A DNA stretch of 64,000 nucleotides from Paraspadella gotoi (Eukaryota > Animalia > Chaetognatha), in assembly GCA_051294375.1 (NCBI GenBank), contig CM119264.1, positions 10,887,832 through 10,951,831 on the forward strand. The letters are read 5' to 3'. The position numbers and the translations under genes are program-made. Below the pieces are notes generated by a model that was given only the letters and a program-made list of their open reading frames with translations, did no database searches and was not told the DNA's origin. Below are positions 27,001 to 49,303 of the stretch, piece by piece (within the stretch, counting starts at the first letter, position 1; each line of letters starts with the position of its first letter).

Positions 27001-28208
27001 GAACGATCTCGTCCATCACACCAACAGCATTGAATCTCGCTATTATCCCGATAACGACAGTCCGACCGAAAACCTACCCTCGTCCCCCCCCGACGAGAAG
27101 ACTACCTCAAATGTCGAACGTCGCCACACGCGGAACCGGGACAAGAAATTGTCTTCCGCTTCCTGCCCTCCCCTTCACGGGTCCCAGTTAACCAAACAGA
27201 GTTCCGCTAAAATCTCACCTCTCAAAGGAAGTGTGGATCTGAACACTGTCAAAAAACAGTTTGACACAGTCGCCTCGCAGCTGGGAGAAATGATGACGAC
27301 GTCCTCTTCGAAGTTCCATCGACAACTTTCCCCAGCGGGGCCGCCGTCTTCCCCACAGAGAGTCGTCTGGACTGGAGTATTGGCGCCTTCGCCAAAATCC
27401 CCTGCCTCTCCGGACCATCGACCCAAGATCACGATGAAGTTCAAGCGCACTTCCCCCGAGACGCGGTCCCCCGCTAACGAAAGCCTCGCCCCATGCGTTT
27501 GGACAATCGCATCTTCGCCTGTTGGCCCCGCTACAAAAGTTCTTTTTCCAAGCGCGACAAAGAGTGGCGTAGCTTTTTTGTCTCCTTCGCCTTCCTCCAG
27601 TGCGAACGCTATTCCTTCGACTTCTCATTCCTCAAACTCCGCTACAAGTTCGGCCCCAGAATATGCGATCTCCGCTGTTTCTCCAGCAAAAACGGAGCAG
27701 CCGGAATCCAATGATACAAGACCGACCGCTGCGGTAGCTGACGTCCCCACCTTCGAAGTTGCCGACGTGCCTTTGCAGTTCCACACGGTTGCCAATTCCG
27801 TGACCGTATCAACCACGCCGTCTTCCCCTCGTCCGTCTCCAACGAGGTGAACGAATGGTTTGGAATTTTAAGTATTTTTTCCTCCCATAAGGCTGAAAAG
27901 CTTTAACTTCTAAGTTGTTTTTGTCAAATTCTTATGCCAGAACACGTGGAACTCGCTACCAACTTAATCACCGCACCGGCACGGACTGCGTCATTTTCGG
28001 CGCTCAGAATTCCAGGCCCGTCGCCCGCCTTTCCTGCGACGACGACGACGACGACGACGAAGACGACGACGACGACGACCGATATAAGCCTCTCGCCCTA
28101 CCGCGGCCGCCCCTCAAAAGACTTCGACTTATAGTCGGTAACGAGGTCATAAACGTTCCTCTCCCCTCGGAAAGCCCCTCCTCAAACTCTCAAATAAATA
28201 GCGCTTAA
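24096..28208 (+). CDS. KMT5B: Histone H4K20 methyltransferase SUV4-20 (KMT5B/C family), 8 exons, long disordered C-terminal region
   Basis: [81 protein letters not shown]; C-terminal KRLRLIVG motif as in vertebrate SUV420H1. Confidence 0.96.
25686..26307. mobile_element. MITE in a SUV4-20 intron (other copies at ~17848-18060 and 49412-49535 + 51105-51210)
   Basis: TIR tagagcgtagtgaaag / tttttactacgcttta; internal 'gtaggctatatttatatatagtactatcctt' is shared with 51107. Confidence 0.8.
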
Positions 28209-28793
28209 AAACTTCCTTCTGTCAGAACAAAAAAATAAGTGCTTAAAAATGTTCCACATTAAATGAGCAAGATGAATTTCACCTCTTTTTATCGTTCTTT
28301 CCACTTCTTTGTAATGCTCCTTTGTTTCGCCCGATGTTCTTACGTATCGTCAATACCGGAAATAAAGCTGTAGACAAAATTTCCTTAAAGACCTTGTCGA
28401 ACTAAAATGGTCATATCGCATTTTACATTGAGATCAAGCTAGGTTTATCAATGAAATCTTTAAAGAGTTTCCAAGCTAATCTTCTAAAACCGGTGGATAC
28501 TATTTTACCTGGTTTGTATCTATTGTCACAATTAAAACTTAAACTTTGATGAGGATCAGAAATAAGTTATTACTACTATTATAATTAATTATAATTAAAT
28601 TTGATTATTTCACTGTGATTTTTAAATAGTAGATCAAGATGAGATCAAAAAGCTAGCTTGTGATTGAGGATTTTTTCTATTTTTTTTATTAATATTTGCC
28701 AGTATCATTTAGTGTATTGTAGTTTACTTTAGTTTATTAAAGAAAAAATGCCCAAAAAAAACCTCTACTCTCTGCTGAATCAATCGTTAATTC

Positions 28794-28942
28794 TACTTTC
28801 CCCGACCGTGGTTAGGGAGGGGTTAGAGGGGTTAAAAGGGTTTAGGATAATTAGGTAATAATTATTTTAAACATTTTTTTTAAAAACAAGTATTTTTAGA
28901 TGGTTTTTTCAAGAGACGCCAAAACCGCGGTCGGCGAAAGTA
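28794..28942. mobile_element. Short MITE with telomere-like core
   Basis: TIR tactttccccgaccgtggtt / aaccgcggtcggcgaaagta flanking ggttagggaggggttagagggg. Confidence 0.75.
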
Positions 28943-29039
28943 GCGAGATACAAAAACTCCATAATTGCAAAACTATTTTAATTCATCATCACTAGCCTAA
29001 ATTTTACTTAAATTAACTTAAATATTACTTATGACTTAT

Positions 29040-29198
29040 GTCAAGGGTGGGATTTCCAGTGGTACCAGTGGTTCGGGATATCTCCCCAACTGGAAAAGCG
29101 GCTGAGGACCGTCAGAGACCGCCTCCTTTTCCAGGCCAGGGATAGAACCCCGGACTCATGGTTGAGACGAGGTGTTTTAACCCGCTCAGCCACGGGAA
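29040..29198 (-). mobile_element. tRNA-derived SINE-like element
   Basis: Minus strand: A box tggctgagcgg and B box ggttctatccc at tRNA-like spacing; no complete cloverleaf. Confidence 0.62.
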
Positions 29199-29786
29199 GT
29201 CTTAGAGCGGAGAGTCGTGATGAGGCGGTTTGAAGTCGTACCGCCACATACTAACTAAGGATATATTAACGATTTGTGATTGTTGTGAGATGTTACTAAA
29301 ATCTAATGCCAAGGAGTTAAACCCAGAGTTTTACTTTTTAGCTCCTTTCCTATCGGAATTCTGTAATTACCAGTCTTAAATTTTGTTTAGAAAAAACTTG
29401 AGGAATGACCACAATAGTTAACTTACTCTCAACTTCCGACGAACTCTTACCGAAATGAACAGCAGCGATCGTTCTCGATTTGTTTTTGTCTTCCTCTTCC
29501 TTATTCCCTTACGAAAAATAAGTCGCGTCCTCTTCATCCCTCGTTCGAAGCCAGCCAATAAACAACCCTCTTCGCTTTACATCAGTTTCAAATGTACAGA
29601 GAAAAGTCTTGCCTCGCCCTGTCACTCAGTTCAATCGAATTAAACTTAACCAGATTTGCAACTTTTAATCGATATCGGGTTGGCTTTTGAAGTTAGTGAA
29701 AATTATTTGCGCTCAGTTGTATACTTTGCTAAACCCTTTATTAAAAAAAATTCATGTTTTAATTCCTTGATTTTACTCATTTAAAA

Positions 29787-32700
29787 ATGTGTGGTGGCTG
29801 CTGCGAAGAGGTAAGTTTCATACATTCTTGGTTCGAAGTTTCGTTGTTTGACGTTTTAATTTTAGGAGGACGTGAGGACCTCTTCACCGTCACCTCGAGG
29901 GCCCCCAAAGCGAAAAAGTGTTTGTTGCACTGATATTCCTACGCTGATTATCTTCATATTATTTTTAGGTGGAATGGTACGTACTGATTACTGAACCGTA
30001 CTTGTCACTTTTGGAATGTATATCTTATGCTTAGAAAAATTATAATTTTGTCATTTTTTAGGGTTATGTAGCGTTCTTTGCCTTCGTAGAGGGAGATGTA
30101 CACCGTCTGGTTAAAGGTTTCGATTCTTATGGAAATGTTTGTGGCCGAGACAATACGGACAATCCAGTTAATGGCAGCATATATAGTGGCCGAAACATGA
30201 CGGACAGAAAGTACTTTAAACATCAATTCTAAGCTAAGTATTAATTTCTTTCATTAAAATACTCTTTTTAATCGCAGGTATGTATTTTTCATGGATATAA
30301 AATATCCTAAAAGCTCGCTTGAAATATGCGTATCTGAATGTCCTACAGTGAGGTTGAACAATTCCAATCAGTTGGAAAACTACGCAAAAGAAAAAGGTAT
30401 TTTATCGTTCTTTCGGAAATTGTCACTGTGAATGTAATAAGTATAAACTTTAAATAAAACAAAATTATTAATTTATTTTCGAAATTTTTTTCTGCACTTC
30501 TTTTTTTAATAAAACTAATTCCGTAATCAGAATTGAACCCCAGACCTTTAGCATCGAAACATTCTCTTTTTTCCCTCTTTTTATACCTTTTAGTCGGATC
30601 TGCTTATCAGCAGATTCCGACTCTATAATTCACTTTGTCGGTCCTACCCCAAAATCTTAATAAAAAAATTTTGATAAATTAAGCCAAAAAAAGTCCGTCT
30701 GTCTGTCCGTCCGTCACCCTTGAGCATTAAACTCCAATTACTCGTGATTGGATGGGTTGATTGGAATGAAATTTTGTGTGTGGGTAGCAAAGTGTGTGAT
30801 TGAGCTGGATATAAAGATTCGATGGATTCAATAATTAATTAATCATTCAATATTTAATCAATTAATTATTCAATATATTTATAAATTATTTAATCAATCA
30901 ATCATTTAAGTCAATCATTATCGGCATTATTGTCGTCACATCATCGCCGTCGTTGCTTTTGTCGAGGTCAGTGACGAAAAGACCTAAAAATCAAACTAAT
31001 TAATTGCCTAATTAATTATTTTTTTTTTCTTCCTTTTATTTTCTTCTAGATTTTTTAAAAAATAGGATGATTTAAAAACCATGACAGTGACTATTGCCTA
31101 TGATACTCTGGGAGAGCGTTTCTTTTTTAATCTCTGATACAGAAGGCTTCATATTAGAAAATGCTCTTTCGCTTTTTCGAACCAAAAATCGGTTCTGACC
31201 TAATCACTGAACCAAATTTGATACAATTTTGCTTATAGTATCCCAATGCCGTACTAATGGGACTATCGAGGGGATTTTCAATTTTTTACCCCTGAGCTAT
31301 GATTCAGGGGCGCAAAAAATGACCAATTTTTTTTAAAAAAAGGTAAATCTTTTTTGTGGGATCATTAACTTTGTAGAAAAAAATTTTAAAACGAATTTTC
31401 ATTGTGTTTTTAACCTTTTATTTTCGTTGTTAGGATATGATATTTATTTAGTGAAAAGATTTAAAGTAGATTTCACAACGATTTTATTAATAATAAATCG
31501 ACATGGTTCGGCTTTGGTTTGCGTTGATGAACGCTGATGAAGGCTTGCAAACCAAAGCCGAAACATGTCCATTTATTATTAATAAAATCTAAAATATGTG
31601 AAATCTACTTTAAATCTTTTCACTAAAACGAATTTTCAAAAATTTAAATTTATTTTTCTTGATTGATTGATTTAAATTGTTTATTTGTTAGTTCATCATT
31701 TTAGATCTAATTTTTGCTCCCTAACAAAAGTTGGCATGAACCTCCTATGTTCATGATTCTGGAAATAGAGCAAAAATTGGTTTTTCACTACAATAGATAT
31801 TCTTTTCTGGACAAATTAACTTTTCTGCAAATGTTAGGGATTAAAAAAATTTGAAAAAAAATGTCCATTTTTTGCCCACCTGGGCTCACCCCTTAGGGGC
31901 CCATATCTCAGGTCTTAGGTCAAATTTCAAAAATCCCCTCGATAGTCCCATTTCTATTGCCCTATACTTAGTTCATGCAAAATTTCATCAATGTCATTCT
32001 AGTAGTTTGATCGGAACAAATTTTCGGTTCGAAAAAACGAAAGAGCATTTTCTAATAAGAAGCCTTCTGTATATTTCGCTTGTTTTCTATCCCTTGGGTT
32101 TGAGAGTTTTCGCAAACAAACCGACGACAAAAAAAATTTCTGAAAAAAACTCTGGTCCAATATTGTCGATTGCGAATCATTCGCCAACCCTCACCTTCCC
32201 CCCCCCCCAAAAAAAAAAAATTGCAGGCGTCAGCTTTTGCGATTATGGAATCAAACTGGATTCTATTTCATCACAAAAAACTTGTTCGGGGAAAACTGCT
32301 TGTCCAGGTCCTTGTCCCGCTTTACCCGTTTACAAAAGGTAACAAATGCAGCAATTGTATGTACAGATTGCTTTGTAGTACCGACTGTCTTAACATCTGT
32401 TTGCCGTCACTCAGTGAGCCTGTCATCAACCGCTGCTTCCCGTCAGCTATTTTGAGCGAGACTATTGAGCGCCTGCAAAGCCTTGTTCTCTTCTTCAACC
32501 AAGTGGACTTCTTGCAAAGGCTCGCTTTTGACATCACCGTGGCTTGGAAAAAAATGGTGGCTTTAGGCATTCTCGCTCTCAGTGAGTCCTTCTCTATGGA
32601 ATTCAAACCCATTCGATACCAACTTTTTTTCTCTTTTTATTCTAGTCGCCTCACTTCTCATGGTTCTGCTCATCAGATTTTTAGCGGCCGTAATCGTTTA

Positions 32701-34615
32701 CGTCATCATCGTGCTGAGCAGTATTGCTTTGGCCGTCACGACCGGCGTTTTATGGTATCCCATATCTTAATTTGCGCTTGGGGAGCTTTCTCTGTAGTGC
32801 CTTTGTGTGTTTCCCATTTGTGGTTAAAAGACAAAATATACGTGAACGGTTGATTCTGAAGTGGGTTTTGGTTTGGTTATCTTTTTAGTCTCACAAAATG
32901 AACTATGTAAATTTACTACAAAAAAAAAATGTTTTGGTCCTATTCTAAGGTGGATGTGGGTAACTCATGAAACGCCGATTGAAGAGGCAAACCTGGTCCC
33001 CTTTTTGGAAATTGCTTACGACACTAAAACAGCTTTTTTGATATACGCCATCATTTCCTCAGTGGTTACTTTTATTCTCATAGTAGTTTTCATTGCGCTC
33101 AGAAATAGCATCACTCTATGCGTGGAATTGTTTCAGGAGGTATGTCGTTTTTCCTAAGTTGTTTAATGATTAATCGAAATGATTGTAATTTATTTACTTT
33201 ATTTAAGGCTGGACAATTATTGGGCCACTGTCCGTTATTACTCATCCAACCTCTTTGGACGTTCCTTGTTTTGATAATATTTTTAACCTATTGGATTACA
33301 GTTGCCTGTTTTTTAGGAACCGCAGGTATGTGTAACATTAGAAAAAGAATTAATGTTGTATACCAATGGAAATTAGTCGAATGATGTACGTAATTTAAGT
33401 CCAAAATATGACGTCAATCTTTTACTAAATGTCTTTAAATATTGATGCAGGGAAACCCGTCTTTAACAACACCACAAACTTTGTTGAGTTCCAAGATGGC
33501 GTTGTTCTCAAAATTCTTTGGGCTTATCACGCTGTGGGGTTAATTTGGGTGTCTCAGTTCATTTTAGCTTGTCAAGAGTTGGTTATTGGTAGTGTTGTTG
33601 CTACCTTTTACTTTGCAAAGTAAGCAATGAAATTGGGGGCGAGCTTGACTTATCTCTTATCACTTATAACTTTCAAAACAGGGACAAATCAACCGTTTCC
33701 TATCCCATCACAAATGGAATCGGAATAACAATCAAGCATCACCTTGGGTCCATTGCTCTGGGTTCCTTGATAATTACATTGGTCAAAATACCAAGGTGGC
33801 CCCCGAAACGTTGTTCATAACTCCTAATCCAAAATATAATGTTTCTCGTGATTTCCTAGATACATAATTCTTTGGGTTCAACATCAGATGAAAGGGAAAG
33901 AAGACGAGTGTACGAAATGTTGTCTCCGAACTTGTTCCTGCTGTTTGTGGTGCCTTGAGAAATGTCTTAAATTTTTAAATCGAAACGCTTACGTTACAAT
34001 CGCCATTACAGGGTAAGTTACGAAAAGCGAAGATGAAAAATGAGAAAGATCACTATTTTCGGTTTCGCCCTTCAGAAAATCCTTCTGCGCGGCGGCACGA
34101 GAGGCTTTCGCTACGATCGTGCTCAACGCGGGTCGCGTCGCGGCCATCAACTCGATCGGCGATTTCGTTCTTTTCCTTGGCAAAATGGGCGTGGTCGGCA
34201 TCACCGCTACCGCTGGCGTCTTTTGGTTCAAGGTTCCACAATTAATACAGTTTGTATTGGTTACCCATTTCACCGTAATTATCTGTTAAAGGCGGATCCA
34301 GCGACCGAGTATTTCTTTCTTCCTGTCCTCCTCACTTCGATATTTTCCTACTTCATCGCTCACTGCTTCCTGTCTATCTACGAAATGACAGTCGACGCTT
34401 TGCTGCTTTGCTTTTGCGAGGCCGAAAAGCGGAAGGAATTTGAGTTGGAACTTAACCGCTCCATGACCGTAAGAACAAAAACTCACTAAACAATTTTTTT
34501 TTTTTTAGTTTAAAACGTGGTGTACTGTAAGGAAAAAAATATCCTTTTACAGAAACTTATGAAGCAAAGATCCTCCGAGTACGCGGAAGAAATTCCTCTG
34601 GCGGGGAAGGTTTGA
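29787..34615 (+). CDS. SLC44A1: Choline transporter-like protein (SLC44/CTL1-like), about 14 exons
   Basis: MCGGCCE, CCTDIPTL, GFDSYGNVCG, ICVSECP, WVSQFILAC, HHLGSIALGSLII, CLWCLEKCLKFLNRNAY, AAINSIGDFVLFLGK, FIAHCFLSIYEMTVDALLLCFCE. Confidence 0.94.
30583..30800 (+). mobile_element. Helentron-associated (HINE/DINE-1-like) element, 5' part
   Basis: tttttatacc start, hairpin agtcggatctgct-tatc-agcagattccgact and a GTCY microsatellite gtccgtctgtctgtccgtccgtc. A homologous copy lies on the minus strand at 58115-59120. Confidence 0.65.
31140..32069. mobile_element. Tc1/mariner-type MITE with long imperfect TIRs and TA target duplication
   Basis: TA|cagaaggcttcatattagaaaatgctctttcg...cgaaagagcattttctaataagaagccttctg|TA; inner arms atgggactatcgaggggatttt / aaaatcccctcgatagtcccat. 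Confidence 0.9.
31531..31573 (+). ncRNA. Minimal type I hammerhead ribozyme motif with palindromic stem III loop (Penelope-like)
   Basis: acg CTGATGA a ggct(tgcaaaccaa)agcc GAAA catg TC. Confidence 0.75.
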
Positions 34616-35616
34616 AGCTCATTGTGATAGCATTCCCGGAAGCAGGCATTTTGATCTCAACTTGGATCAAAATTTATATTTTAATTTTTTTCCCCAACTT
34701 TTAATAATGAATAATTTCTTTATAGTTTATACGTAGATGCTTCAATTTCTTTTTGTTGTTAACAAAATCAGTTCTTTAAATACTTCTCTCAAACTGATAT
34801 TGTTAGATAAAATCATTTGCTTGATTTTTAACGATATTTTATTGATAACCGATATTGCATGTGTATTTTGTTTTCGTCTTTTATTTCATTGAAAATTATA
34901 ACTTTTTCATTTTGAATGTATGGTCATTGCTCAATGCTTAACCTGTACTATCTAGCCTTTTAGTTCTAGTTCGCTGTAATTTTGAAATTATTAACTACAT
35001 AAGGCAGTTTACTGATGGTTTTAAATTTTAGGTTTGCATAAGTTGCAAATTTGGATTGCACTTCTGTTTTGTTGTTGGAGTGAACAAGCTAGAAGTTTGT
35101 TTTAATTTTTACATATTTAGGAATTATTTGTGACTGGCAAACTTAAAAAAGGGGATTTTATTGCTGGCAAGGGGGGTTTTAATTTTTCTATTGTCTTCCA
35201 ATTTTTTTTTCTGTTGCTCTTTTACTGCTTTTGATCACGCTTGCACTATGGAATTGGTATAAAAAATTCATTCACACCAAATCATTGAAAGTAACATTTT
35301 ATTCGGTGAATTAAAATATACAATGTTTTTTATAGCAGTTCGCTGTTCATTAAAGTAATTTACTCAAGACAGGTTTTTCTTGGATTAAAGAAGAGCGAAT
35401 AGTATTAATAATAATATTATTATTAACATTAATAATATTAATATATAATTATAATATTAATAATAATAAGTACTATAAAACGTTACTTTTTCATACGGTT
35501 TTACTGCATACTAACCAAAACCAAAATTTTCGAGCAGCCGAATACGGTTCTATGCATACTGATATTGTTTCAACGTTTTGTAAGTAGTGTTTGAGTTGTA
35601 TTTGAACTCAAGATTT

Positions 35617-36432
35617 TTATTGCGTTGATGATCCCTCGTCAGCCACAGCATAAACTAAACAAACATTTTTTTTCGTTAAGGTTGGTTATAATTTTCAAGT
35701 ACACAAAATTTACTTTTTACCTGTAAAGTATAAAGTTAAGATTACCGCAACTGTTATGATAGTAACAATAATTGCCGCAATAGCGATTTTCTTTGCAACA
35801 TTTCCTACAAAGAAAATATATTTTATCTCAAATAAATAAAATATAAAGAAAATATCGTTTCTTACCAAGTGAGCGACCGTCTTCCAATCGTCCATTGTCC
35901 GAGGCAGATCTCGACAAAACGGAGCAAACAAACGCGAGAAACCCTGAAAGTTGTTTTAATGTGCTAGATTCGGTTGATCTGGAATTTAAAAATTCGCTAA
36001 AATGTCTAATATTTTCAAATTCATAAATTTGGTATAATGATCTAAAAAGTTCATAATTTATTAGGTTTAACAAAAGTTTGATACCTTACCTAAACACAAA
36101 ACGTCAAAAAACAGACAGGTGATTATAGTGAGAATGAGATAGTCGGGAGCTCTCTCCTTGGCCGCGGGCGGATTGACCGTTGGCGAATGATATTCGTATG
36201 GATTATTCGGATCTTGTTCCCCTTGGTAGTTTTGCGACGGATACTGAGGTGGCTGGCTCTGCAAGGCTGGGGCGGGTTGCTCCGGCGAGCCGTTTCGTGG
36301 TTCTTGCGTGCCTTTAGTTAATTAGTAAATTAGTGAATTAATGAAAAATTGTTATTGTCGTAAAACTGTTTCAATCGCGTCACCGTAGGACGGCGGAGAC
36401 TCCATCGCCTTCTCCGTTTCTGAAGAATCCAT
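35617..36432 (-). CDS. CD225/dispanin family (IFITM/PRRT-like) membrane protein, 5 exons
   Basis: Pro/Gln/Tyr-rich N-terminus, then APDYLILTIITCLFFDVLCLGFLAFVCSVLSRSASDNGRLEDGRSLGNVAKK followed by a TM helix. All introns are phase 1. Confidence 0.88.
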
Positions 36433-37205
36433 TTTTTTTATTATTCCAGGAAGAAAAAAAAAATTTATTTAACTTAATCGAATACGCATATCACGTTTTT
36501 TTGAAATAGGACCAGTTACTCGAGTGGCTTCAAAACGGGATGAACCGGTATTTTTCAGAATTTAACGTTTGTCCTTCGCCAGGAGCTCAATATCTTTCTC
36601 AAAAACCGGCTTTTCACTAACGAAAAGAGTCGACGCAATACGTTTAGGACGGAATAGCGAAGTTACGACGTGGTCTATTTAAGCGTTTCAAACTATTATG
36701 CTGAATTTGGAAGTGGAAGATATGGATAAATAAATATTAGCTACCTTTTAACAACAATACTATTTAGAAACCCCCACTCGGGATAACTGCTATTGTTCAA
36801 TTAGAAATTGAAAAAGTCAAAAAAGCTAATTAAAGCAAGAAGAGCTTCTCGTAAAACCTGTATTTTTTACACTCCAAATTTTTATTAATCGCTTTATAAG
36901 TCTTTATCTATTTTTTCGTCAATCAAGGTCGTTTTGCTATGAAAGCTAATTCGCTGAAAGCAAATTCTACGCAATGCATTCAAACATTTATATGTACTTT
37001 TATGTACTATGTTTTAACTTTTATGGCACTTGTATTTCTCCAGGTACAGAAATATGGATCCCAACAGTCATATAAGGCATGCGAGGGAAACAAAAAACCA
37101 CGGAATTTAACCAACTTCAAAACAACTTTGGTGAAACAGGAAACAAAGCAACATGCTGGTGTAATAGTATCTAGTTAGTCTGGCCCCCAAAGATCCCAAA
37201 AAGGA

Positions 37206-37674
37206 TCACCCAGCTCCGGCGCCCTCCCCGTGCTCTTCGAGTCGGATAAATTTGTAGCATCCATCAGGCAGCTGCTCCTGAATGTCTTCAATGTTGGCCA
37301 CGTCCTTCTCCAGCTGCGTCAGATCTAGTGTGTACTCGTCGATAAGTGTCTGCTGTTGCTTGGCGCCGACCTCGAGACGCGATAGTTGCTCGTCGAGATT
37401 CATGGCCCCCAGCTGATCCTCCAGCCCTTCCAACTCGCGTCCGAGCTGGCCGAGAAAACCTGGGTTAACGGTACCGACTCTAGAGAGTTCGTCGAGAAGG
37501 CGCATGAGATCGTCAAGCACGTCGTCGGCCTTGTCGATGGCCGCGTCGGCGTCGCGTTTAGCGTCGTTGGCGATGCGATTGGCGTCGTCGGCACGGCCAA
37601 GATCCCGATCGGCTTGGTTCATCAACGCTGTTTTAATTTGAGAGATGTATTTTAAACCGAATCAGAAACATTTT

Positions 37675-37725
<51 letters not shown>

Positions 37726-40400
37726 TACTATAGACTATATTCTCTTCTCACCTTCCAACTCCCGGTCCCTCTCGTCGACCTCCCTTCCGAGGTCCCGAGC
37801 CCTGCCGCTCTCTTCCCTCGCCTTAGATGACAATTCAACGACTTCCGGTAAAAGCGGCGTAACTTCCCGCTCGGCACCGGAAGCGATCCGCAGAGCTTCC
37901 TCGGCGTCGTAGATGGCGCGCTCGGCCTGCTGTCCGGCGCCTACCAGGGAGCCGTCGGCCCTCCGAGTCTTGCTCTCAGCCTCGAGGATGATGCGCTCGA
38001 TCTCCTGCATCCCCCGGAGGGCTGCGTCGGCGAGGTTTTTGGACTGCTGAACCTCGTTGTCAAAGTTGCGCAGGATTCTGTTGTGGGGATTAAAAAAAAG
38101 GTTTAGAGGTAATTGTGGGTAAGGGTTTTTTTTATCTGAAGACATGGACCCTTTCTCAACTTTAAAACCTTATATTTATAGTACAAACATACTCGTCAAG
38201 TTTTTATAACCTTTATAATACGCATCTCTACGAGTTTCTCCGTCGGTACGTAGTTTTAGTTTTAATTATTCAAATCTTTATTTTTTTTTCTTCTATTACC
38301 ATTGTTCATCCCTAACCCATTAATCACCAAATGAACCAAGAAACTTCAAATCTCCCTTATGCAAAATCTTATGCAAAATCTGCACCGATACTACGAATGA
38401 TGACCTTAGCGTCTCCATGGCCTCTGCGATAATTCCGTCGGCTTTGGACTTGGCCTCTTGGGCGATGTTGAGTGCAGTCGTCGCCTCCTCCAGCAGACGG
38501 TCCATAAGTTGCTGGAGCCGCACGCTTTCCTCATATATTCGTTGAGCCTCGAGTACTTTTGACCTTGTCGGCATACAAGTTTTTTGTTAAGAAACGTGAT
38601 TTAAAATTATACCAAATGTTTCGCTATAATATATATATATTTTTGAAGAAACGTTAACATAAACTGGGTCTCTGGTTTGTTATGCTTAGATTTAAAATTT
38701 ACGAAAACTTACTTGATGGATTGAATGATCCCCGCATACTGTCTCTTCAGCCTCTCGGCCGCATTGGCGACGCTCTCTGCCGTCCTGGCGACCTCCTTAG
38801 ATCGCCTGCGTACCTCATCGATGTCGACCGAAGGGCCGGAGCCTCTTCGGACGTCGTCGAATATTTTCCTCGCTTCGTCTCGGCATTCTTTCATTCTGCT
38901 GTAAAGTCGTTCGGCGTCTCGACGCGCCTGCTCCATCTCGTAGCCCATCCCGCTGAACCCTCTTTGGATTTGAGCCAAAGACCTCGAGGTCTCCTCTTGC
39001 TTGGCGAAAGCCTCTCTGGCTAGTCGCCCCGCCTCTTCCGACGTAGATAGTGCCTTGTCAGACGTCGCCCGAATCCCGTCGGCTTCTTGTTCGTGCTGCT
39101 CGGCCAGTCGACGCGACTCTTCCGCCATCTCGGCCATCTCCCGCGATTGTCGTCCGAACTCGCGCTCCGCTCGGCGAGCGTTATCCAGCGCCTCCCGACC
39201 GCGAAGCTGCAGTAATTCTTGCAACTGTCGTAAGAGATCCTCTAGACGCCCTACAGTTGCTTGGCTCTCGGCTACAATGGCCTCGCCTCGTCGTTTGTCG
39301 TCCTCCACGTCCCTTCGAGTCGAAGCGAGGCCGTCCAGCTTTTCTCTCAGAATCCGCAATGCCCGTCGGTATTCTTCGAACTTGGCCATGGCTCCGGATG
39401 ATGGGCTGGAGGCGCGCAGTGATGCATCGTAAAGTTTATCAACGAAGGTTTGCACTTCGCGTAGAGTCGTCTCGAAACTCGCGTCCGTCGATCCTCCAGA
39501 CGAACCGCCTTCGCCGATCTTTTGGCGCAAGAGGCGAAGACGTCGGCGCATCTCCTCGATGGTCGGAGAAAGCAGAGCGTAGCAGGGATCGCACTCTCGA
39601 CACTCGCCTCTCGCGGGCGTCGTTCCCGCCGCAACGAAGTTCTCCTCGCAGCGGTCGCAGAGACGGCCCACCACATGGGGGCGACAGTGACACTGACCGC
39701 GAGAGTCGCACTCGTCGGCTACGCTGCCGTAGGCAGAACAGCCGCATCCACGGCGAGTGAACTGAGGTCGACGAGGATCTTCTGGTCTTCGAGGATCTTC
39801 TGGTCTTCGTCGTGGGTCTTCTGTTCTTCGTCGAGGGTCTTCTGGTCCTCGCCGAGGATCCTGCGGTCTTCGGCGAGGGTCCTCTGGCCTTCGTCGAGTA
39901 TCCTCTGGTCTCCGTCGAGGATCTTCAGGTCTCCGACGAGAACCGTCAGGTCTTCGTCGATCATCTTCGAGCCTTCGACGAGGATCTTCAGGTCTTCTCC
40001 GCCGGGGGTCTCTGTCGGTATCCCTGTGTCCTGTCGCTGACGATGCGCGGTTGTTATTGTCGTAACGAACGTCGCTTCGTCGAGGATCGAAAGCTCCGCC
40101 GGAAACAACTGTAGGAACGTTGTAAACGACGCCGCCGTAACTAGCGTCGCCTCTTGATCCGGCCGATCGGAAATCGTACCGGTTACTCGTGTCTGTCTCC
40201 GGGGAGGCGTACTGATATCGTACGTAACTCTCGTCGTAGTTACCGGCGGTCGAGCGCTGGCGATTGTTGTTGTTGTTGTTGTTTCCGTAAAAGAACGGGT
40301 TCCCCGACTGCGCAAAGTATGTGACCTCGGCTTCGACGCATGCGCACGCGAAACACGAAGCGAGAAAAGCGTTCCAGAATCGTCTCGTGGGAGCCAGCAT
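37206..40400 (-). CDS. Truncated laminin gamma-like chain, about 864 aa (exons 40400-38713, 38563-38405, 38077-37752, 37627-37206): signal peptide, novel low-complexity head, one LE domain, full coiled coil
   Basis: LE motif CGCSAYGSVADECDSRGQCHCRPHVVGRLCDRCEENF followed by CRECDPCYALL and a ~590-aa heptad region ending DVANIEDIQEQLPDGCYKFIRLE, typical of gamma chains. The spliced length of 2595 nt is in frame. Confidence 0.9.
37679..37720. repeat. (CT)n microsatellite in a laminin intron
   Basis: Pure CT run. Confidence 0.95.
39766..40008 (-). repeat. Coding minisatellite with a 21-bp unit, about 11-12 copies, encoding RRRPEDP
   Basis: Repeated 'tcgaggatcttctggtct/cttcgtcgagg' units. Confidence 0.92.
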
Positions 40401-40854
40401 CTTGCGGGTCTCGCTGGGGTGACTTTCTTTTCCCCTATTCCCGTCCGTCGTTCGCTAGATCGCCCGTCAATTCAAAATTTGTTGGTACGCGGTTCAATTT
40501 TTTTTCACTTTCGAGTTCAAGATTCACGAACGCGGTTTTTTTTTTTTTTTTTAAGTTTACTTCATCTCTCAATCATCTGATCATCATTCAAAAAAATCCG
40601 CCGATGATGATCGAAAGGTTTTCGAGGGATTTTTTCGTTTCGTCGTCCCTGACTTCTTCGCTTCAAGGGCGGTCCGAATCGAGATGAGGTTCGGGACGAA
40701 CGTTCGGTCCGAAGCGGTTCGCGTCGAAGTGGTTTTTGTCAGACTTTCTCTTATCGAAACTAAAATTGTATTTTTTTTTTCTTAGATTTTTTATTGAAAA
40801 AGTTGGTATTTAAAAGCTCGTTTTGATTTTGTATTTTATAGCGTTGCGTGTTAA

Positions 40855-40923: not shown

Positions 40924-42078
40924 TTTTTTTTTTTCTCAGCTCATGATCGTTAAAAAGTGAAAAATAAGATAAAAATTTAAAAAAGCTAAAAAGCTAAAAT
41001 AAAAAGGAATGAAATCCGGATGAAGATTTCGAATGTTTTTGACCATAGCCTGGCTCCTCCGAGGGTGCGGATAAAGATTTCGAAAAAGATAAACGTTTTT
41101 AAAATCTTTTTTTTTAAAATCTAATTTTTTACTGCCCCGCTTTAAATATTATAAGGAAAGACGTTAACATATCTCCCAAAGACCAAAAAAAAAAAGCATG
41201 AAATGAGAAAGATGAATAACAAATGTACGATTTGAAGTCGAAAGTTAAATGCAGTTAGTTTTTACTTTTGCTCTTCTTTTTTCATTTCTCGAAAGAAAAA
41301 ACAAACGAGGAAGAAAAAAACGGAGAGGGGGAGAGAGATAAAGTGATGGGGGAAAGAAAAAGCGAGAAGAGAGCGAGAGAGTTTCTTGCGTTTATCCTCA
41401 GATTTCGCACAAACTCAAAGAAGTTGTTTTGATGTAAGCGACGAGTGAAAATGCCCATATTATTCGTATCTTTGTACTAAATAAATAGATTTCCTTCTTG
41501 CCAAGTGGACTAAAGAAAAACAAAACAACTGAAATTCTCTTGTACTTTAACCCCTTTAAAATAGAACCTGAGAATTCCATTCCGATTTAAGACGTGAATT
41601 TAGGTCATAAACGTTTTCAACATGAGGCCGACGAATCAACTTTGATCGTTTTTCATTGAATCTCGTTAATTCGCGATGAGCTCGTGGATCTGACTCTTCG
41701 CTACGATCTATGATCGATAATGCGAAAAGCGGTCCGACTCCGGCTTCTTTCTAAGACTGAGTGCATCATGATGTCATGAAAATGTCGATACATTAAAATA
41801 CGAGGTTCATTAAAAACTGTCTTTACCCTGTGATTGACAACAATTCGAGGCTCATATCATCAGCTTAACGTTTCAGTCAAAACCGTACCTTTTTTGGCGC
41901 CTCAAATTTGAGAGCACTCTTGTCTCGTAAAAAAAAATTTTGAATTCGTTTACATTTAAATCCCAGGTTTCAGATCGATGAAAACAAAGGTATCCTTATT
42001 CCTGGTTTTTTTTCCTTTCATCCATCGGGAAACTTGTGAAAAACTTCTACAAATAAAGAAAAAAACAACAAAGTACTT

Positions 42079-42478
42079 GTCCAAAGTCAGGGGCAAGGAT
42101 AGCTTATTTATTAAATGAATGGATAATTTTTTATATTGGTTGTACCAATTTCATAAAATTCAGCTCCTTGTATTTTGATGCTAGTGCGGAGTACAATAAG
42201 TATTCCCCGATCTAATACTTAAGGGAGTGGTCTTTTCATACAATTGAAACATTCTTTGAAATATTTTCCACTTCATTGATAGGGAAGCCAGGTACTCTGG
42301 GAGTGAATAAACGAGACTGTGAAAGAGTCTTGATTGAAAGCTTGCAGGGACCTGCTATGTCATTATCTTGTAGAGTGATGGAGGCCTTAAACCACCAAAG
42401 CCTGTCCAAAGTCAGGGCAAGATAGCTTATTTATTAAATGAATGGCGATAATTTTTATATTGGTTGTACCAATTTCAT
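42079..42478 (+). repeat. Dispersed ~325-bp repeat with ~75-bp terminal redundancy (copies at 57655-57990 minus and ~61440-61645 plus, the latter deleted)
   Basis: gtccaaagtcagggcaa...ggttgtaccaatttcata occurs at 42079-42155 and again at 42404-42478; the body matches the reverse complement of 57690-57945. Confidence 0.85.
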
Positions 42479-44674
42479 ATATATATACGTAAAACGTATG
42501 CAAACGTATACAAACGTACGCCATGCATTCATCTGACTTTACATAGACGGATTATAACAAATTCGCACTAGATAAATTCGTTCTTTAGCTTAGTTTTAGT
42601 CTAAAATTTCTTTTCGTGAAATTCGAGAAAAAAAAAACACCAAACGCTGAGTCGAATTTTTGCGATTGTAACATTGGAAGCAGGCAAAACCACTTTGCCC
42701 TCTTCGAGTTGAAAACTTTCGATTCCCCATTAGATAAAATCCTCAAGGTTATGAAATTTTAATGTCAATCGCACAAAAACAAAAAAAAATGCCCGAAAGA
42801 AATAGTATCTAAAAAAAGTCAAAAAGAAAATAATAATATGAAAACTATTATGAAGTGTACGTCACTGAATAATTACCCTCATCATTCAGTTGTTGTTTTG
42901 ACTTTTGTTTTTGTAAATGTGCGAGAAGAGGGAGACGCCCGGCATCCATCCCACCTTGTGCTTAATTGAACAAGATAAGTAAGAACGGCTTGGCGGAAAG
43001 AATGAGTGTGAAGATTGAAAATGAGTTATGACTTCAAAATAAAAGAAAAGAAAAAAGTTGTTTCCGCACTTACTCCCCCTTCCCGTTTTCTCTTCTCTCC
43101 TTCTTTTTGACAAGCGAATTTCAACGGACTTTAATTTTTCCCCTTTTTTTTCTAAAAGGTTTTTTTTTTTCAAGTTGCATACGCGAAAACCTATTAACTA
43201 ATGACTTTCGTCTGTCCAAATACGCGTTTCTCAAACAACTAAAGAGTCAACGAAAACCACCAGTACATTAAATTTATTAATGATAATATATCGACATGTT
43301 AAATGTAAATTTTCGTTAAGAAAACAATTGTATACATTTGTATATACATAACATTTTAGTCGTGTACTCGAAAAATTACCTCATTTAAAAGTTGTCAAAT
43401 AAATTACCGTCGCGATGCTTTGCAAAGGGCGGTATTTTTTAATTTTTTAAAAAAGCGGAATTCTTTCCGACTTCCCCCCCCCCCCCCCCTTTTTTTCGAA
43501 ATTCTCGAATCAAGCGACGACTTTCACTCTCGCCCACTCCGTCTCCCTCCACTCTGTCTCTGTTGTGTTCGTTCTTTGGCCGCTTCTACAAGTTTCTTAT
43601 CGTTCCCTTTTCTCTTAATGTTCTTTCCTTTTCTTATGATCCACATTTTCGTCCCCTTTCCTTATAGTTTGCCCATTTACCCTTTTTTTAATATTTTTAG
43701 TTCCTCGATCCTAATTCTCCTTCTCCCATTTCCCCTTCCTTTTACGTTTTGCTCCCAACTCGATTTTTCACACATTACGTATATTCCCCTCCCCTCCTTC
43801 CAATTAACTGCTCTTATACCCGAAGCTCTTTAGTCTTAGCCGAAATTACTTTGACTCCCTCCAAGCCCCTACGTGTCAGCTGTCACTTCTAACTTACCTT
43901 CTACCGCGCCCCAGTCGCCCCACCCACCCACCTCGAGTTTCTCGGCAATATTCTCGGTTGGTCAGTCAAGAGGAGCAAAACCCGATGACAATATAAATTA
44001 GCGGAAAAAGGAAGAGGAAATGGCTGACACCGATGAAAACCCGTTAAAGATTTCGATGGAGGGAGGTTGAGCAGATTAGAAAGGATTGAACATAAAATAA
44101 TAAAAGTAAACAAGAAAAAAAAGCATCGGGAGGGCGATCGTTTTCGCAGATATTCCCTTTCACTGTTTATGAAAAGTCCGGCTTTTCCCTAAATTTTGCT
44201 TGTCGCGAGTGTCATGACAGTTATTTTGTTAAAGACGGAAATTGTATAAGGGTATATTTATTGGATTTAATATAATTATCATCATTTCCGTTTTCGTAAG
44301 AAATAATTACGTACGTTCTTTTTTTTTATTAGATAAGTTTAATATTCACAGTGAAGTTTTTTCTTTCTTTCTTATTTTAGCTTCTTTTTCTCTATTTCTT
44401 CGTACTTTTCTATCAACTTAGTTTTTCTCTTCCTTAGACAAAATTTCAGTTTATTTCTCGGCCAATAGGAAGGTGTTTATCACAACGCCTTTGATCGCCG
44501 AAGGGTGTCGATTGTCGAATTTTGGCGTCAGGTGCGGAGGAAGATGCAGCGAAAAAAAAAATAGCGGCAGAGTCGGTGGGACCTTCGTTGACCACCGACG
44601 GGTGCTGACCCAAGGTTTGTCAATCTAAGTAACCAACGCCTTAAAAATTCAGCTAACGACAGATTTAGAAAACA

Positions 44675-47600
44675 ATGCCGTCCAGCCCCTCAATTCCGCC
44701 TTCATTTTCATCTTTGATCTTATCAACCGTTTTACTTACCTGTGAACTATTTCACCCGATTCTTGCTGACCGAAACTCGACAGATTCCGACATTCTCTTC
44801 CTTTCAAACGCACAGTCATCCGTTCTCGATCCGCTATGGACCAACGCGCAAGGAACGAGCGAGCAAACCGAATCGAAGGCGACAAAGACGATGGACGAAT
44901 TGAGAGTGATTTCTGAAGTTGGAGGAATCATTCCAATTAGAGGTGAGTTTGATTCTACAAATATGAACAATTGTACATGAATTTCATGCCAAATAGTTCG
45001 TCAAAAATCCTCGAGAATTTCTCAACTTGTTCTCGTAAGTTTTCTGCCATCTTTCTCTTTACCGTTTATGGTTTGCCTTTAAAAACCATTACATTTTCAA
45101 CTAAAAGTACATACTAAAAAGTTACAAGCAGTTAATCTTACAAATTCAACAATTAAACCCATTACATATATTAGCATAAATATATTTATTAAAAAGTCAT
45201 TTGCTCGGCTTCGAAATATCTTTCTCCTTTTCTACAGGAGTAAAGCCGGCTGGTCTACCGAGTGTCGAGGAAAAATCTTCCACGTCCTCTCCTTTGATTC
45301 GCACTTCAAAAAGACAACGTCGACCGCGAAATGGGATCCGATCTTCGTCCGAATCTCCTCGCTCGAAAATGCTCGAGCCAACATCGAGACGAACAAAACC
45401 GCAGGCCGAGGAAATGGTCGAGGAGATCCCGGCCGCCGACTCTCCAGAGGATTTCCTCGTTTCCGCCCCGATTCGGGGGGCGATAATCACCCCGGCGCCA
45501 ATGGTCTCGGTGCAGACCTCTAGGGGTAAAACTAAAAGGCAGACTAAAGGGTTCAAAATTATTTGTCGGTTTTCCTTTCCTTGACGCCGAACGTCCCGGT
45601 TCCGTCTGGGGAGAAAACTTCTCGACAATAATTTTTAAATAGTTTCGAGAAAAAGTCAACGCCAACGGCAACGAGAGTACGAACTGATGACAAAAGAAAG
45701 AGCGTTTTATTTTAAAGATAATACCCCGTTTTCTCTTGAGAGCACTCGGGGACAAAAAAAAAAAAAAAGAATGTTGATGATAATCATCCTGACGCCGAGT
45801 AAAGGCTTTTATTTAGGGTGTATTATGAAAAATTTTACATTCTACTGTTTTAGTCTCAACTCTCAAAAATATCTTACAGTTGGCTTAACGTCAGACTCTA
45901 TGAAGCCTCAAATGAAAAAAGAGGACCTGACGAAGGTATACCTAAGCTATAATAAGACACAATTCCATTTTATTAAATAAAAGATTTTAATTGGTTCTAT
46001 TATTAAAGGCAAAAGACGATCCTCTTTCGCTCACTAAATTTTATTACGTCAGACGGAATCAAGTCGACGCCCGAAGGTCGCCATAGAATTTGACGAGGGG
46101 AATTTCGACACGTTCATCCTGACGAAGAAACGAAGAGGCGAGTTCGAAAACTTTGAACGAGAACCAAGTTCACCGCCGCGTAACGCGGTGCCGAGGGTGC
46201 GCCATGACCTGCACGTTTACCATCGATTCCTTCCCGAATTCTCTGGTGACGCAAACACTTTTTATAGCCACAGCGTGGAAACTTCCGGCGCGGGTCAAGA
46301 TTCTGATTTATCGCCTAACGACGAGAGAAAGTAGGATACTTCATAATTATTATACTAATCAATTATAAACATTAAATAGTATAGTATTTATAAAATAATC
46401 ATTAGTGATGAACGAACGTAGTGACCGCAAAGTTTGTTTTTTTTATTTCTCATCTATTTTCCCCTCGTTTTCCCATTTATGGCCTCAAGGTTCTACTTTC
46501 AACAACTGGTAAAAGCTTTGAAGGGAAAAAGAATTAAAAAGGTCCGACCTTCGAGAGACGTTTCCGACGATGATAGTGAAGAGTTCCCAGAAGCTCTAGA
46601 GGTCGAAAATAAGCCATCAAGTAAACTGTGCCTCGTATTATATTCATTATTTTTCATGTATTATACTTTAGGTGATGGAAACCTTGGAGGAAATATGGGG
46701 TCTGCACAACGAAACAGAAGCGGTGGCCAGTAGCGGGGGAAAAAGAGTGCAAGTTCGCAAGATTCCGGCCAGTTATTTATTGTTGTTTAAGATCAGCCAC
46801 CCTGAGCGTCGGACAGGAGGGGGAATGAAACTGGTGTCGGGCCAAAGAAGAAAAGTATCATCGAAAGATTTTTCGATTGATAAGAAATCAAAGAATGAGA
46901 ACAAGTATGAGAAAGGCAGGGTCTGGTCTGGGATAGGTGAAGAACAATATTTTCGAAAGAATGAGGTGCAATCAAGGGAAAACAAATCCGTGGCAAAGAT
47001 AAAAAATTTACAGATGAAAAAAGATAATCATATTCTTGGTATGACGTTTAAAAAAGATTTTGAGATCCATAGTGATCATAGTGCTGATTCAGAAGCTAGT
47101 CGCAGCGGTAAAGTCAATTCAAGTCATGACCACCAGACAAATCATACACTTAGCATCGATATTAATAGTCTCGACAACCACAAGCGAAATGGAGAGGAAG
47201 AAAATCCTGGCCTGGGCATTCAAACACCTAGTTTTGGAATAGCGACAAATCGCGTGGACCAAAATCCTTTCCTGGACAAACTCAAACTGGACGCGCAAGT
47301 TTTGGGGAAAAAACCAACAACCAACAAAACATTGATGAAGGAAATGGCCGAAAAAAACGTTTTGAATTACGAGGATTATGAAATCCTTCCCAAGGTTAAT
47401 AATAACAATAAATAACATTAAAGGTCATATATTTTATTAAATAGTATCTGACGAATTCATTACTTTTCCTGATAGGTCAACACTAACACCGGAACCAAGA
47501 AAAACATTACTTTACCCATAAAAAGTTTTAAAGACGTTTCGAAAAATTCAACCGGAACAACAAAAGATGCCAAACCTTTAAACCTTCTAAAGCATTTGAT

Positions 47601-49303
47601 AGAATTTCCATTAACAACACCGTTGCCGGCGCCTCAAAAGGAAGTTTTTACTTCAGCAACGTTTCAGTTGTTAAACAAAAAAACATTTACTAACTTTCCT
47701 AGAAAGGATATGTTTAAATCTCACAGGAAAACAAATAGCCTAAAACCCAAAACCATCACTGATACCAGAAAACGGTATATATCTCCTTACATACCTCCTT
47801 TAAAAATAAATGACAAAAGAAAATTTATTAAAATACCAACTAATCAAAAAGTTAATGGTGGTCCTCTTTCGAAAATGCAACCAGTGCAGAGACCGTATAA
47901 GCCGGTTCCATTGCTTCCTATTACAATGTCGAAAAATGTAGACTTTGCGACGTTTTCTCCAAAAAAACCTTTGTCATCGTATCCAAAAGCGAAAAATTAT
48001 GAGTATGAAAGTGGCAAAAGAAAAAAAGATTCTCTCATAATTGAGAACGGACCTTACCCGTTCTCTTCTTCAATAGTTCGATTACATGGAATGGGTAAGG
48101 GAAATCACTTTGAATCCCAGGTTAAACCACAACGCAACGGTACGTTTTTTTCAATCAAACTCCCGCGTAATTCTTGCACGTAATGCACTGCACCAACTTT
48201 ATTTTCTTTTTTCAAATAACGAAAATCAATCAGGATTTGTAATCATCGAAAATAGAGAATAAATAAATTTCAAAAACTAATTTACAAAAATTAAAAGTAT
48301 CATTTTTATAATTTTTTTATGAAATTTAGTACTGAAGGAGGAAATAGTAGGAAATACACGAATAAATCATGTTTGTTTATATTATCCTCAGGTTTTTCTC
48401 CAATGTTAAGAAACACCATGAGTAGTCCTGGGATGCAAAGTTCAAATATGATGAGCAATGTAATGGCCGGAGCTGGAGGTTCACAAATTCGTGGTCAGAG
48501 TCTGCCAGGATCTATATGGAATATGGCATCAAAAATGTCAGGAGGTATATTCATGATTAATCTTTTTCCAAAGCAGCTTCCCAGGTTCAAGTGAACTTTT
48601 AGGGTAACTTAAGTACGAATTTATTTTTTTGTAATTCAATAAACAAAAGTCCATTTCTTAGTTTGGTATTAGTAAGATTATGACTTGAATTGTTTTAGAC
48701 AGAACAATCGATGAGATGTTGTACGCTAATAATATTGACGTTTAATGATCGTAATTGTTACTACAAAAGCTCTTATTTCTTACTTCAAGGTTATTAACCC
48801 AGGTTCTTGAATTCGAGTCCCGTTGGGCCTAATAATAATAATAATAATAATATTAATAATAATTATAATAATAAGAAAGACGAGCAGCATTCCCGCAAGA
48901 CCAGTGGACTCAAGGATTGTATTGAGAAATCTTCTAGGACTAACTTTTAAAAATAAAGAATGTCAATCAACTATAAATAAAGCTTTTACAAATTAGCTTT
49001 CCTGAAAGGAAACATCTGCCATTGTAAAATTGTAGGATTCATTCCAACTCCGTAATAATGTAATAATGTACAATAGGTGTATTTTATTTCAACATTATCA
49101 TCCCCATCATTTCATAATTAGGTGCTTCGAGCCCATGGACTCAACTTCCTAAGCAAGCTCTTATTAAAGGGATTGGAAATCCGTGGTCAGCTCTCGGAAA
49201 GATTCAAGGTCAACAACAACGCCAGTCTCAACTTATGCAAAGAATGGGGAGAATGGGTGGAATTGGAGCTGGTATGGGAAATATGGGAGGAATGTTCGGA
49301 TAG
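44675..49303 (+). CDS. Uncharacterised secreted low-complexity protein, about 924 aa, 9 exons (44675-44942, 45238-45550, 45854-45935, 46053-46330, 46490-46601, 46672-47394, 47476-48139, 48392-48544, 49122-49303)
   Basis: Hydrophobic signal-like N-terminus; all eight GT-AG introns are phase-compatible and give a 2775-nt frame; Met/Gly-rich C-terminus; no domain recognised. Confidence 0.72.

What the first reader, a model, noticed from the sequence alone, without database searches (positions are those of the whole stretch)
37206..40400. Headless laminin gamma chain: the whole short arm is replaced by a novel low-complexity head
Seen: one exon runs from a signal-peptide-like start through ~190 aa of non-laminin sequence straight into the last LE domain and the coiled coil, giving about 864 aa in total. 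No Cys-rich LE-like ORFs appear in the 4.3 kb before the divergent gene at 44675. Established: gamma chains (~1600 aa) use the LN domain for network polymerisation and an LEb repeat for nidogen binding, while the coiled coil drives trimer assembly. Truncated chains are known in vertebrates (gamma2, alpha3A, alpha4), but gamma2 keeps L4 and several LE domains. Inference: an independently evolved, non-polymerising, nidogen-blind gamma paralogue that could form specialised adhesive or network-capping trimers.
Basis: partly seen in the sequence, partly recalled or inferred. Interest (0 to 1): 0.8.

Follow-up and report, generated by a model that had tools for sequence, protein, structure and literature searches.

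The report
Headless laminin chain with new tip
This expressed animal gene, likely from an arrow worm, encodes a laminin gamma chain that has lost the arm normally used to build the basement-membrane mesh and carries a new, conserved tyrosine- and arginine-rich head instead, so it likely forms laminins that anchor cells but cannot join the usual network.

Summary
Confirmed. A four-exon minus-strand gene (40400-37206) encodes 864 aa: predicted signal peptide, 194-aa Cys-free head, one LE domain, CxxC, a full-length gamma coiled coil and the integrin-site Glu. One spliced RNA contig matches all four exons without mismatch and carries an in-frame stop upstream of the ATG. Seven full-length homologue clusters (829-880 aa, 56-64% identical in the coil) share the layout, so missing exons or misassembly are very unlikely. 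The head is more than low complexity: four short Tyr-rich motifs recur in 9 of 9 sequences, with no Pfam, PDB or Atlas match and no confident fold. The family sits in a clade with LE-rich gamma fragments, one bearing the nidogen motif, and does not group with a gamma2-like chain. Whether a full-length gamma exists in the same species was not testable. The arrow-worm assignment comes from earlier scan notes only. Other LN-less gamma-like predicted proteins turned up, so truncation itself recurs; the conserved replacement head is the novelty. No earlier scan note of this gene was found. Verdict: new variant of a known kind.

The parts
40401..40518 (-). Transcribed 5' UTR, with an in-frame TAG at 40457-40455 upstream of the ATG; a second contig suggests the UTR may continue to about 40847
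   Evidence: X1 record 2 begins at 40518 next to a poly-T run, and record 3 covers 40565-40847; the stop-to-stop ORF begins at 40454
38713..40400 (-). Exon 1 coding part (1688 nt): signal peptide, head, LE, CxxC, first half of the coiled coil
40329..40400 (-). Predicted signal peptide, res 1-24 (cleavage placed by alignment before the conserved [QE]VTYF)
   Evidence: Hydrophobic stretch in the window protein and most homologues; helix 7-18 in a low-confidence model; no SignalP run
39747..40328 (-). Novel Cys-free head, res 25-218, rich in Arg, Asn, Pro, Tyr and Gly, with conserved motifs VTYF (26-29), PFFY (35-38), SYVRYQY (58-64) and VVYNVP (91-96)
   Evidence: Motifs in 9 of 9 sequences; 17 of 76 positions invariant over res 25-100 in 8 full-length members; composition; no Pfam, PDB or Atlas hit; no confident fold
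39768..39997 (-). 21-nt tandem repeat, 11.1 copies, encoding RRPEDPR-like units; not shared with the homologues
39600..39746 (-). Single LE domain with 8 Cys (res 219-267), corresponding to the last LE of gamma1; lacks the nidogen motif
   Evidence: PF00053; aligns to the last LE of Ischnura and Drosophila gamma1; motif scan negative
39582..39593 (-). CxxC (C270, C273) at the start of the coil, the position of the inter-chain disulphides in known laminins
   Evidence: PMC6744579 passages
38405..38563 (-). Exon 2 (coiled coil)
37752..38077 (-). Exon 3 (coiled coil)
37206..37627 (-). Exon 4 coding part: end of the coil, C848 (37259-37257), E855 (37238-37236, seven residues after the Cys as in gamma1), a 9-residue Gly-rich extension and the stop
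   Evidence: Ungapped match to gamma1 in PDB 5xau_C and 5mc9_C, E 3e-9 and 2e-8
36875..37205 (-). Transcribed 3' UTR
   Evidence: X1 record 2

Best explanation
This is an expressed, LN-less laminin gamma chain, likely a lineage-specific duplicate, predicted to be secreted and likely to assemble with normal alpha and beta chains into a laminin that would still bind cells but could not join the three-arm network or bind nidogen, with its new head likely acting as a flexible tether to the matrix. Shown: the gene, its splicing, the domain layout, loss of LN, L4 and the nidogen LE, and retention of a full-length heptad coil (578 aa from CxxC to the last Cys, against 580-581 in three arthropod gamma1 chains), both disulphide sites and the Glu, in a conserved family. 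From established laminin biology: the coil drives trimer assembly, a trimer lacking one LN does not polymerise, and nidogen needs gamma LEb3. Inferred: a full-length gamma paralogue still builds the network. The head is a disordered spacer with short Tyr-rich sticky motifs that bind a matrix partner or each other. The molecule would then work like vertebrate laminin-332, as an anchoring laminin, plausibly at the thick matrix under arrow-worm epidermis.
For: Spliced RNA contig, 3044 nt, 0 mismatches, upstream in-frame stop. 8 homologue clusters among 7994 candidates scored, 7 of them full-length with one PF00053 each. L001 transcript contig has the same layout and its own upstream stop. Two ENA gene calls (P0009, P0015) run from the head through the LE in one frame and end in what looks like intron read-through. 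Mean identity to the window: LE+CxxC 0.80, coil 0.61, head first half 0.45, head second half 0.22. Heptad periodicity z = 19 at period 3.5. Glu seven residues after the last Cys in 8 of 8 short chains. Tree: short chains 100/100, inside a 100/99 clade with LE-rich fragments P0031, P0034 and P0035 (nidogen motif present) and coil fragment P0036. Polymerisation, nidogen and Glu rules: PMC6744579 and PMC11260871 passages. Arrow-worm tandem-duplication burst (PMC12460157), thick ECM (PMC1885248), and nidogen and collagen expression (10.1101/2025.01.31.635879).
Against: No full-length gamma of this clade was found. Searches for longer relatives gave 0 hits and 5 hits, all named from insects or vertebrates. 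The LE-rich relatives are fragments, none shows an LN, and their species are unknown. The four as one sister clade were not rejected (p = 0.093), so nesting is not proven. No alpha or beta partner from this organism was seen. The Glu is 10th from the C-terminus, not 3rd as in mammalian gamma1 (reference title seen), so integrin binding may differ; LE-rich relatives have similar extensions. The head has no confident fold or known partner. The phylum is taken from unreviewed notes. The tissue of expression is unknown.
Confidence: 0.62

Rival explanations
1. The head is a replacement assembly module: it self-associates (Tyr/Arg-driven condensation or beta-strand zipping) or is tyrosine cross-linked, so trimers with this chain build a matrix by an LN-independent route.
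For: Pooled heads are 16% Arg, 9.5% Tyr, 0.2% Lys and have no Cys, Trp or Met. The alternating-residue motifs are invariant while the spacers vary in length, 144-206 aa. The resemblance to sticker-and-spacer proteins is recalled, not tested.
Against: AlphaFold gave no ordered structure for the head (pLDDT 24-37; pTM 0.12). Short conserved motifs fit binding to another protein equally well.
Confidence: 0.15
2. It is the only gamma chain of these species, so their laminin cannot form the canonical LN network at all; the LE-rich relatives come from other taxa.
For: No LN-bearing member of the clade was found. The short chain was easily found in 8 clusters.
Against: Both long searches scored only about 8000 word-sharing candidates and are weak evidence. 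LE-rich chains at 35-41% coil identity (P0031, P0036) share a long, well-supported stem with the short family. Nidogen is expressed in an arrow worm. Reviews treat polymerising laminin as present in all or nearly all basement membranes.
Confidence: 0.1
3. Its main role is to dilute or cap the network: it competes with full-length gamma for alpha and beta, and softens or limits the laminin polymer; the head is incidental.
For: Non-polymerising laminins mixed with polymerising ones are expected to lower polymer stiffness (PMC11260871). Coil and Cys sites are intact.
Against: Four head motifs are conserved across sequences only 56-64% identical in the coil, which a mere competitor would not need.
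Confidence: 0.08
4. The chain has left the laminin trimer and serves as a monomer, a beta-gamma dimer or a self-associating coiled-coil fibre protein.
For: Its coil is only 24-31% identical to canonical gamma1 chains. No partner was seen.
Against: Coil length, CxxC, C-terminal Cys and Glu are all kept. The LE-rich relatives are just as divergent from canonical chains.
Confidence: 0.05
5. Artefact: misassembly, a pseudogene, or the 3' part of a longer gene with distant LN exons.
For: Only one run holds the stretch, and it may be the source sample. The contig's 5' end abuts a poly-T run, so the true start site is unseen. A minor longer isoform cannot be excluded from contigs.
Against: Spliced, mismatch-free contig with an upstream in-frame stop. 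No pyrimidine-rich acceptor in exon 1 before the LE. The same N-terminus in 7 full-length homologue clusters.
Confidence: 0.01

Closest known systems
Laminin gamma1 / LanB2 (human and mouse LAMC1, PDB 5xau_C and 5mc9_C; Ischnura XP_046391414.1; Drosophila kikkawai gamma-1)
   Same: Last LE, CxxC, coil of about 580 aa, C-terminal Cys, and Glu seven residues later; 25-29% coil identity to arthropod gamma1
   Different: No LN, no L4, 1 LE instead of about ten, no nidogen motif; novel 194-aa head; 9-residue tail after the Glu; 864 aa against about 1620
Vertebrate laminin gamma2 (LAMC2) in laminin-332
   Same: LN-less gamma chain of a non-polymerising, anchoring laminin (PMC6744579 and PMC11260871 passages)
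   Different: Gamma2 keeps L4 and several LE domains (recalled; seen in the gamma2-like P0149) and is trimmed further by proteases. Here the trimming is genetic and a new head is added. Grouping with P0149 is rejected (p = 0.0002).
Laminin alpha3A and alpha4
   Same: LN-less chains with few LE domains that give non-polymerising trimers
   Different: These are alpha chains with LG domains, known from vertebrates; this chain has no LG
Unnamed LN-less gamma-like predicted proteins P0046, P0111, P0064, P0143, P0054
   Same: Hydrophobic N-terminus, no Laminin_N hit, gamma-like coil
   Different: They have 3 LE (P0046, P0111), no LE (P0064) or a retained L4 (P0143, P0054), with at most a short leader and not this head. 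Grouping with the short family was rejected for the 3 tested (P0046, P0064, P0143). They are unverified gene calls.

Membership tests
Laminin gamma chain | Coiled coil of about 580 aa between an N-terminal CxxC and a C-terminal Cys, without a beta-type Cys-rich interruption or LG domains | tested here: met
   Span 578 aa with only one Cys (506) inside; heptad z = 19; no LG hit
Laminin gamma chain | Sequence closer to gamma than to beta chains | tested here: met
   107 bits over 356 aligned columns to Drosophila gamma1, against 47 bits in LE-only pieces to fish beta2; exon 4 hits only gamma1 in the PDB at significance. Caveat: the beta outgroup was not one clade in the tree.
Laminin gamma chain | C-terminal Glu used for integrin binding | tested here: inconclusive
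   Glu aligns without gaps to the gamma1 Glu and is kept in 8 of 8 short chains, but lies 10 residues from the end, not 3
Laminin gamma chain | Assembles into alpha-beta-gamma heterotrimers | not testable with these tools
   No alpha or beta chain of this organism was available; no genome is held
Polymerising gamma1/gamma3 type | N-terminal LN domain | tested here: not met
   No PF00055; no LN piece in the window; transcript closed upstream by a stop
Polymerising gamma1/gamma3 type | L4 domain and LE array with the nidogen-binding loop | tested here: not met
   One LE only; the N[IV]DxNxxGxC motif is absent here and present in 30 other session proteins, including P0035
Vertebrate gamma2 (LAMC2) orthologue | Shared ancestry with gamma2 and a retained L4 | tested here: not met
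   AU test rejects grouping with gamma2-like P0149 (p = 0.0002, LG+G4); no L4. P0149 is unnamed; the 'gamma2-like' label is mine, from its length, domains and tree position.
Paralogue of a full-length gamma in the same genome | An LN-bearing gamma gene in the same species | tested here: inconclusive
   LE-rich fragments in the same clade, species unknown; long searches negative but weak
Secreted protein | Cleavable signal peptide | tested here: inconclusive
   Peak 9-residue hydropathy 1.99-3.11 before [QE]VTYF in the window and 6 of 8 homologues; the other two start at a later Met (0.99, 1.5), and one of them has a cluster member with a full leader (P0024). No SignalP available.

The most novel reading that the evidence does not exclude
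Arrow worms replaced the laminin gamma polymerisation arm with a newly evolved, disordered Tyr/Arg sticker head that self-assembles or is tyrosine cross-linked, giving a second, LN-independent way to build a laminin matrix, possibly as the only gamma chain in some species and underlying their thick skeletal basement membrane.
Probability: 0.2. Interest if true: 0.85.

Novelty: new variant of a known kind. Interest (0 to 1): 0.58.

Why it matters
A 2019 review states that invertebrates have only two laminin isoforms and lists alpha3A, alpha4 and gamma2 as the LN-less chains (PMC6744579, passages). A conserved, expressed LN-less gamma family in an invertebrate lineage shows that non-polymerising laminins evolved again outside vertebrates, here with a new module in place of the short arm. 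If the lineage is arrow worms, which have a multilayered epidermis on a thick matrix, it is a candidate convergent counterpart of laminin-332. It also gives a natural test of the three-arm polymerisation model, and a small secreted head whose binding or self-assembly can be assayed directly.

Tried and rejected
No whole genome is held, so paralogue and partner searches in the genome were impossible. Searches for longer relatives: 0 of 7981 candidates; 5 of 7982, all named from insects or vertebrates; both weak evidence. The run search listed no holder on record as RNA; X1 proved to be RNA only by its spliced contigs. X2 gave nothing useful. X3 gave one 223-nt contig about 80% like exon 4, whose loose end reads like the short-family tail. 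Spliced-leader test of the phylum and of the 5' end: no leader seen at L001's start or among the loose ends shown (lists cut and dominated by repeats). The window scan for a published leader core gave 2 matches against 0.64 expected, with 14 of 100 shuffles reaching 2: uninformative. AlphaFold: exon-1 protein mean pLDDT 44.7, even the LE not folded; head alone pTM 0.12. No fold search was run on these models. A three-copy complex prediction of the head could not be run because the queue was full, so self-association is untested. Atlas: the full-length homologue gave only generic LE clusters under 0.9; the head gave no usable hit. I first considered a sponge origin and dropped it for lack of support once the earlier notes pointed to an arrow worm. 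RGD at res 83 is in only 2 of 9 heads, and an RxRR site in 3 of 9: neither is treated as functional. The three readable supplements of PMC12460157 have no laminin entry; its spreadsheet was too large to read and may list laminin genes and their cell types. bioRxiv supplements were closed. Not found in print in 10 searches, of which some were aimed at truncated or arrow-worm laminins. A 2012 survey of laminin evolution by Fahey and Degnan (recalled; only the author names seen) was not read and may describe truncated invertebrate chains.

Full report
Observation. The gene lies on the minus strand from ATG 40400 to the stop at 37206. Run X1, whose contigs are spliced at GT-AG introns in several genes of the window, holds one 3044-nt contig covering 40518-38711, 38561-38405, 38077-37752 and 37627-36875 with no mismatch or gap. 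The contig extends 118 nt upstream of the ATG and includes an in-frame TAG at 40457-40455. No pyrimidine-rich acceptor occurs in exon 1 before the LE, and no other laminin piece occurs in the 64 kb. X1 is a single run and may be the source sample, so it shows expression and correct assembly, not breadth of expression.

Anatomy. Residues 1-24 look like a signal peptide (hydropathy only). Residues 25-218 are a Cys-free head. Residues 219-267 are one eight-Cys LE (PF00053, E 1e-8), followed by CxxC at 270-273, a heptad coil (z = 19 at period 3.5) and C848. The span from CxxC to the last Cys is 578 aa, against 580-581 in Ischnura, Lepeophtheirus and Drosophila gamma1. Exon 4 aligns without gaps to human and mouse gamma1 in PDB 5xau and 5mc9, with E855 on the integrin-binding Glu, but nine residues follow it. 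The region scores 107 bits against Drosophila gamma1 and 47 against a fish beta2. LN, L4 and the nidogen loop are absent.

A family, not a one-off. A search among proteins of 309-986 aa gave 8 clusters from 7994 candidates: seven full-length (829-880 aa) and one 426-aa partial, all unnamed, each with one PF00053. They are 56-64% identical to the window in the coil and 56-85% to each other, so they likely represent different species. All have a Cys-free head of 144-206 aa. A transcript contig L001, the only one of 334 pattern matches confirmed, encodes an 880-aa member with its own upstream stop. Two gene calls (P0009, P0015) run from head through LE in one frame and end in apparent intron read-through, which suggests the same exon layout in other genomes. 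This makes an artefact very unlikely.

The head. It is not just low-complexity. [QE]VTYF, P(T)[YF][FY][YE], S[YF]VRYQY and V[VIA]YxVP occur in order in 9 of 9 sequences, as does Q[YF]xR[RQ] just before the LE. 17 of 76 positions in res 25-100 are invariant across 8 full-length members, against 8 of 118 in res 101-218. The second half in the window is an 11-copy 21-nt repeat not shared by the others. Pooled heads are 16% Arg, 12% Asn, 11.5% Pro, 9.5% Tyr and 0.2% Lys. There is no Pfam, PDB or Atlas match. AlphaFold gave no ordered structure, but with only 21 and 14 similar sequences, and it also failed on the LE, so disorder is suggested, not shown.

Origin. In a 49-row quick tree and a 29-row careful tree of LE plus coil, the short chains are one clade (100/100) inside a clade (100/99) with P0031 (at least 2 LE), P0034, P0036 (coil fragment) and P0035 (at least 4 LE, nidogen motif present). 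These are fragments of unknown species and none shows an LN. Holding the four together as a sister clade is not rejected (p = 0.093), while grouping the short family with gamma2-like P0149, or with P0046, P0064 or P0143, is rejected (p 0.0008 or lower; LG+G4, long branches present, beta outgroup not monophyletic). The 29-row tree used 4 of the 7 full-length homologues and a hand-picked subset of the others; the first tree left out near-duplicates and hits covering under 440 aa. The simplest reading is duplication of gamma within this lineage followed by loss of the short arm in one copy. Searches for a full-length member failed but were weak, so co-occurrence in one species is open.

Organism. 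Three unreviewed notes on this genome call it an arrow worm; my spliced-leader checks were uninformative. If right, the context fits: a burst of tandem duplication and many phylum-specific genes (PMC12460157, passages), a thick connective layer between epidermis and muscle (PMC1885248, passages), and a multilayered epidermis, nidogen and collagen expression and a laminin alpha marker in adhesive cells (10.1101/2025.01.31.635879, passages). In the first paper's main text 'laminin' does not occur.

Mechanism. Reviews (PMC6744579 and PMC11260871, passages) state that the coil with its Cys sites assembles the trimer, that only trimers with all three LN domains polymerise, that nidogen binds gamma LEb3, that the gamma Glu is needed for integrin binding, and that laminin-332 is a non-polymerising bridge between basal keratinocytes and dermis. 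Everything needed for the long arm is kept here and everything for network and nidogen binding is gone. I therefore favour a secreted, trimer-forming, non-polymerising anchoring laminin whose head is a flexible tether with short binding motifs (0.62). Rivals: an LN-independent self-assembly head (0.15), sole gamma chain (0.10), network diluter (0.08), non-trimeric use (0.05), artefact (0.01). All functional steps are inferred.

Novelty. Of 150 listed representatives (350 at E up to 0.001), 56 of 400-1350 aa were screened for a hydrophobic start and 7 checked in Pfam. None of the 7 had an LN, and five (P0046, P0111, P0064, P0143, P0054) look like further signal-peptide-bearing truncated gamma-like chains, all unverified. 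LN loss may therefore recur in animals more often than the reviews imply, which lowers the surprise of the truncation. What stays distinctive is a one-LE chain with a long conserved novel head, verified by RNA and by a multi-species family. I found no description in 10 paper searches (listed under Tried and rejected; other papers there were seen as listings only; PMC2481426, PMC6238537 and PMC13326535 as passages) and no earlier scan note. Verdict: new variant of a known kind, interest 0.58.

Noticed in passing
window 42061-42480: Small high-copy element 1.7 kb upstream of the gene, with about 92-nt direct terminal repeats (42062-42155 and 42389-42479, 90% alike), very high depth in X1, a related copy near 57650-57994, and a weak Twister-P5 match at 42374-42416 (E 0.051, below gathering score). 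It resembles the LTR retrozyme noted elsewhere in this genome.
   Followed up: partly
window 28087-36454: One 5151-nt X1 contig spans a plus-strand choline-transporter-like gene (PF04515) and the minus-strand small gene just downstream of the laminin, suggesting overlapping 3' ends of convergent transcripts.
   Followed up: no
window 36430-36875: The next minus-strand gene starts only about 420-450 bases after the laminin contig's 3' end; it could be operon-like, but no bridging contig was shown.
   Followed up: no
P0046, P0111, P0064, P0143, P0054: Other predicted gamma-like chains with a hydrophobic leader and no LN domain, from unnamed sources; possible independent truncations or gene-call errors.
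   Followed up: partly
P0035: LE-rich gamma fragment of the same clade with a long Arg-rich C-terminal extension after the Glu.
   Followed up: no
window 44675-48600: Divergent plus-strand ORFs (signal-peptide-like start at 44675; long low-complexity ORFs at 46672-47415 and 47476-48183) with no Pfam match.
   Followed up: no
window 57227-57670: ORF with tandem PQQPVGY-type repeats and no Pfam match.
   Followed up: no
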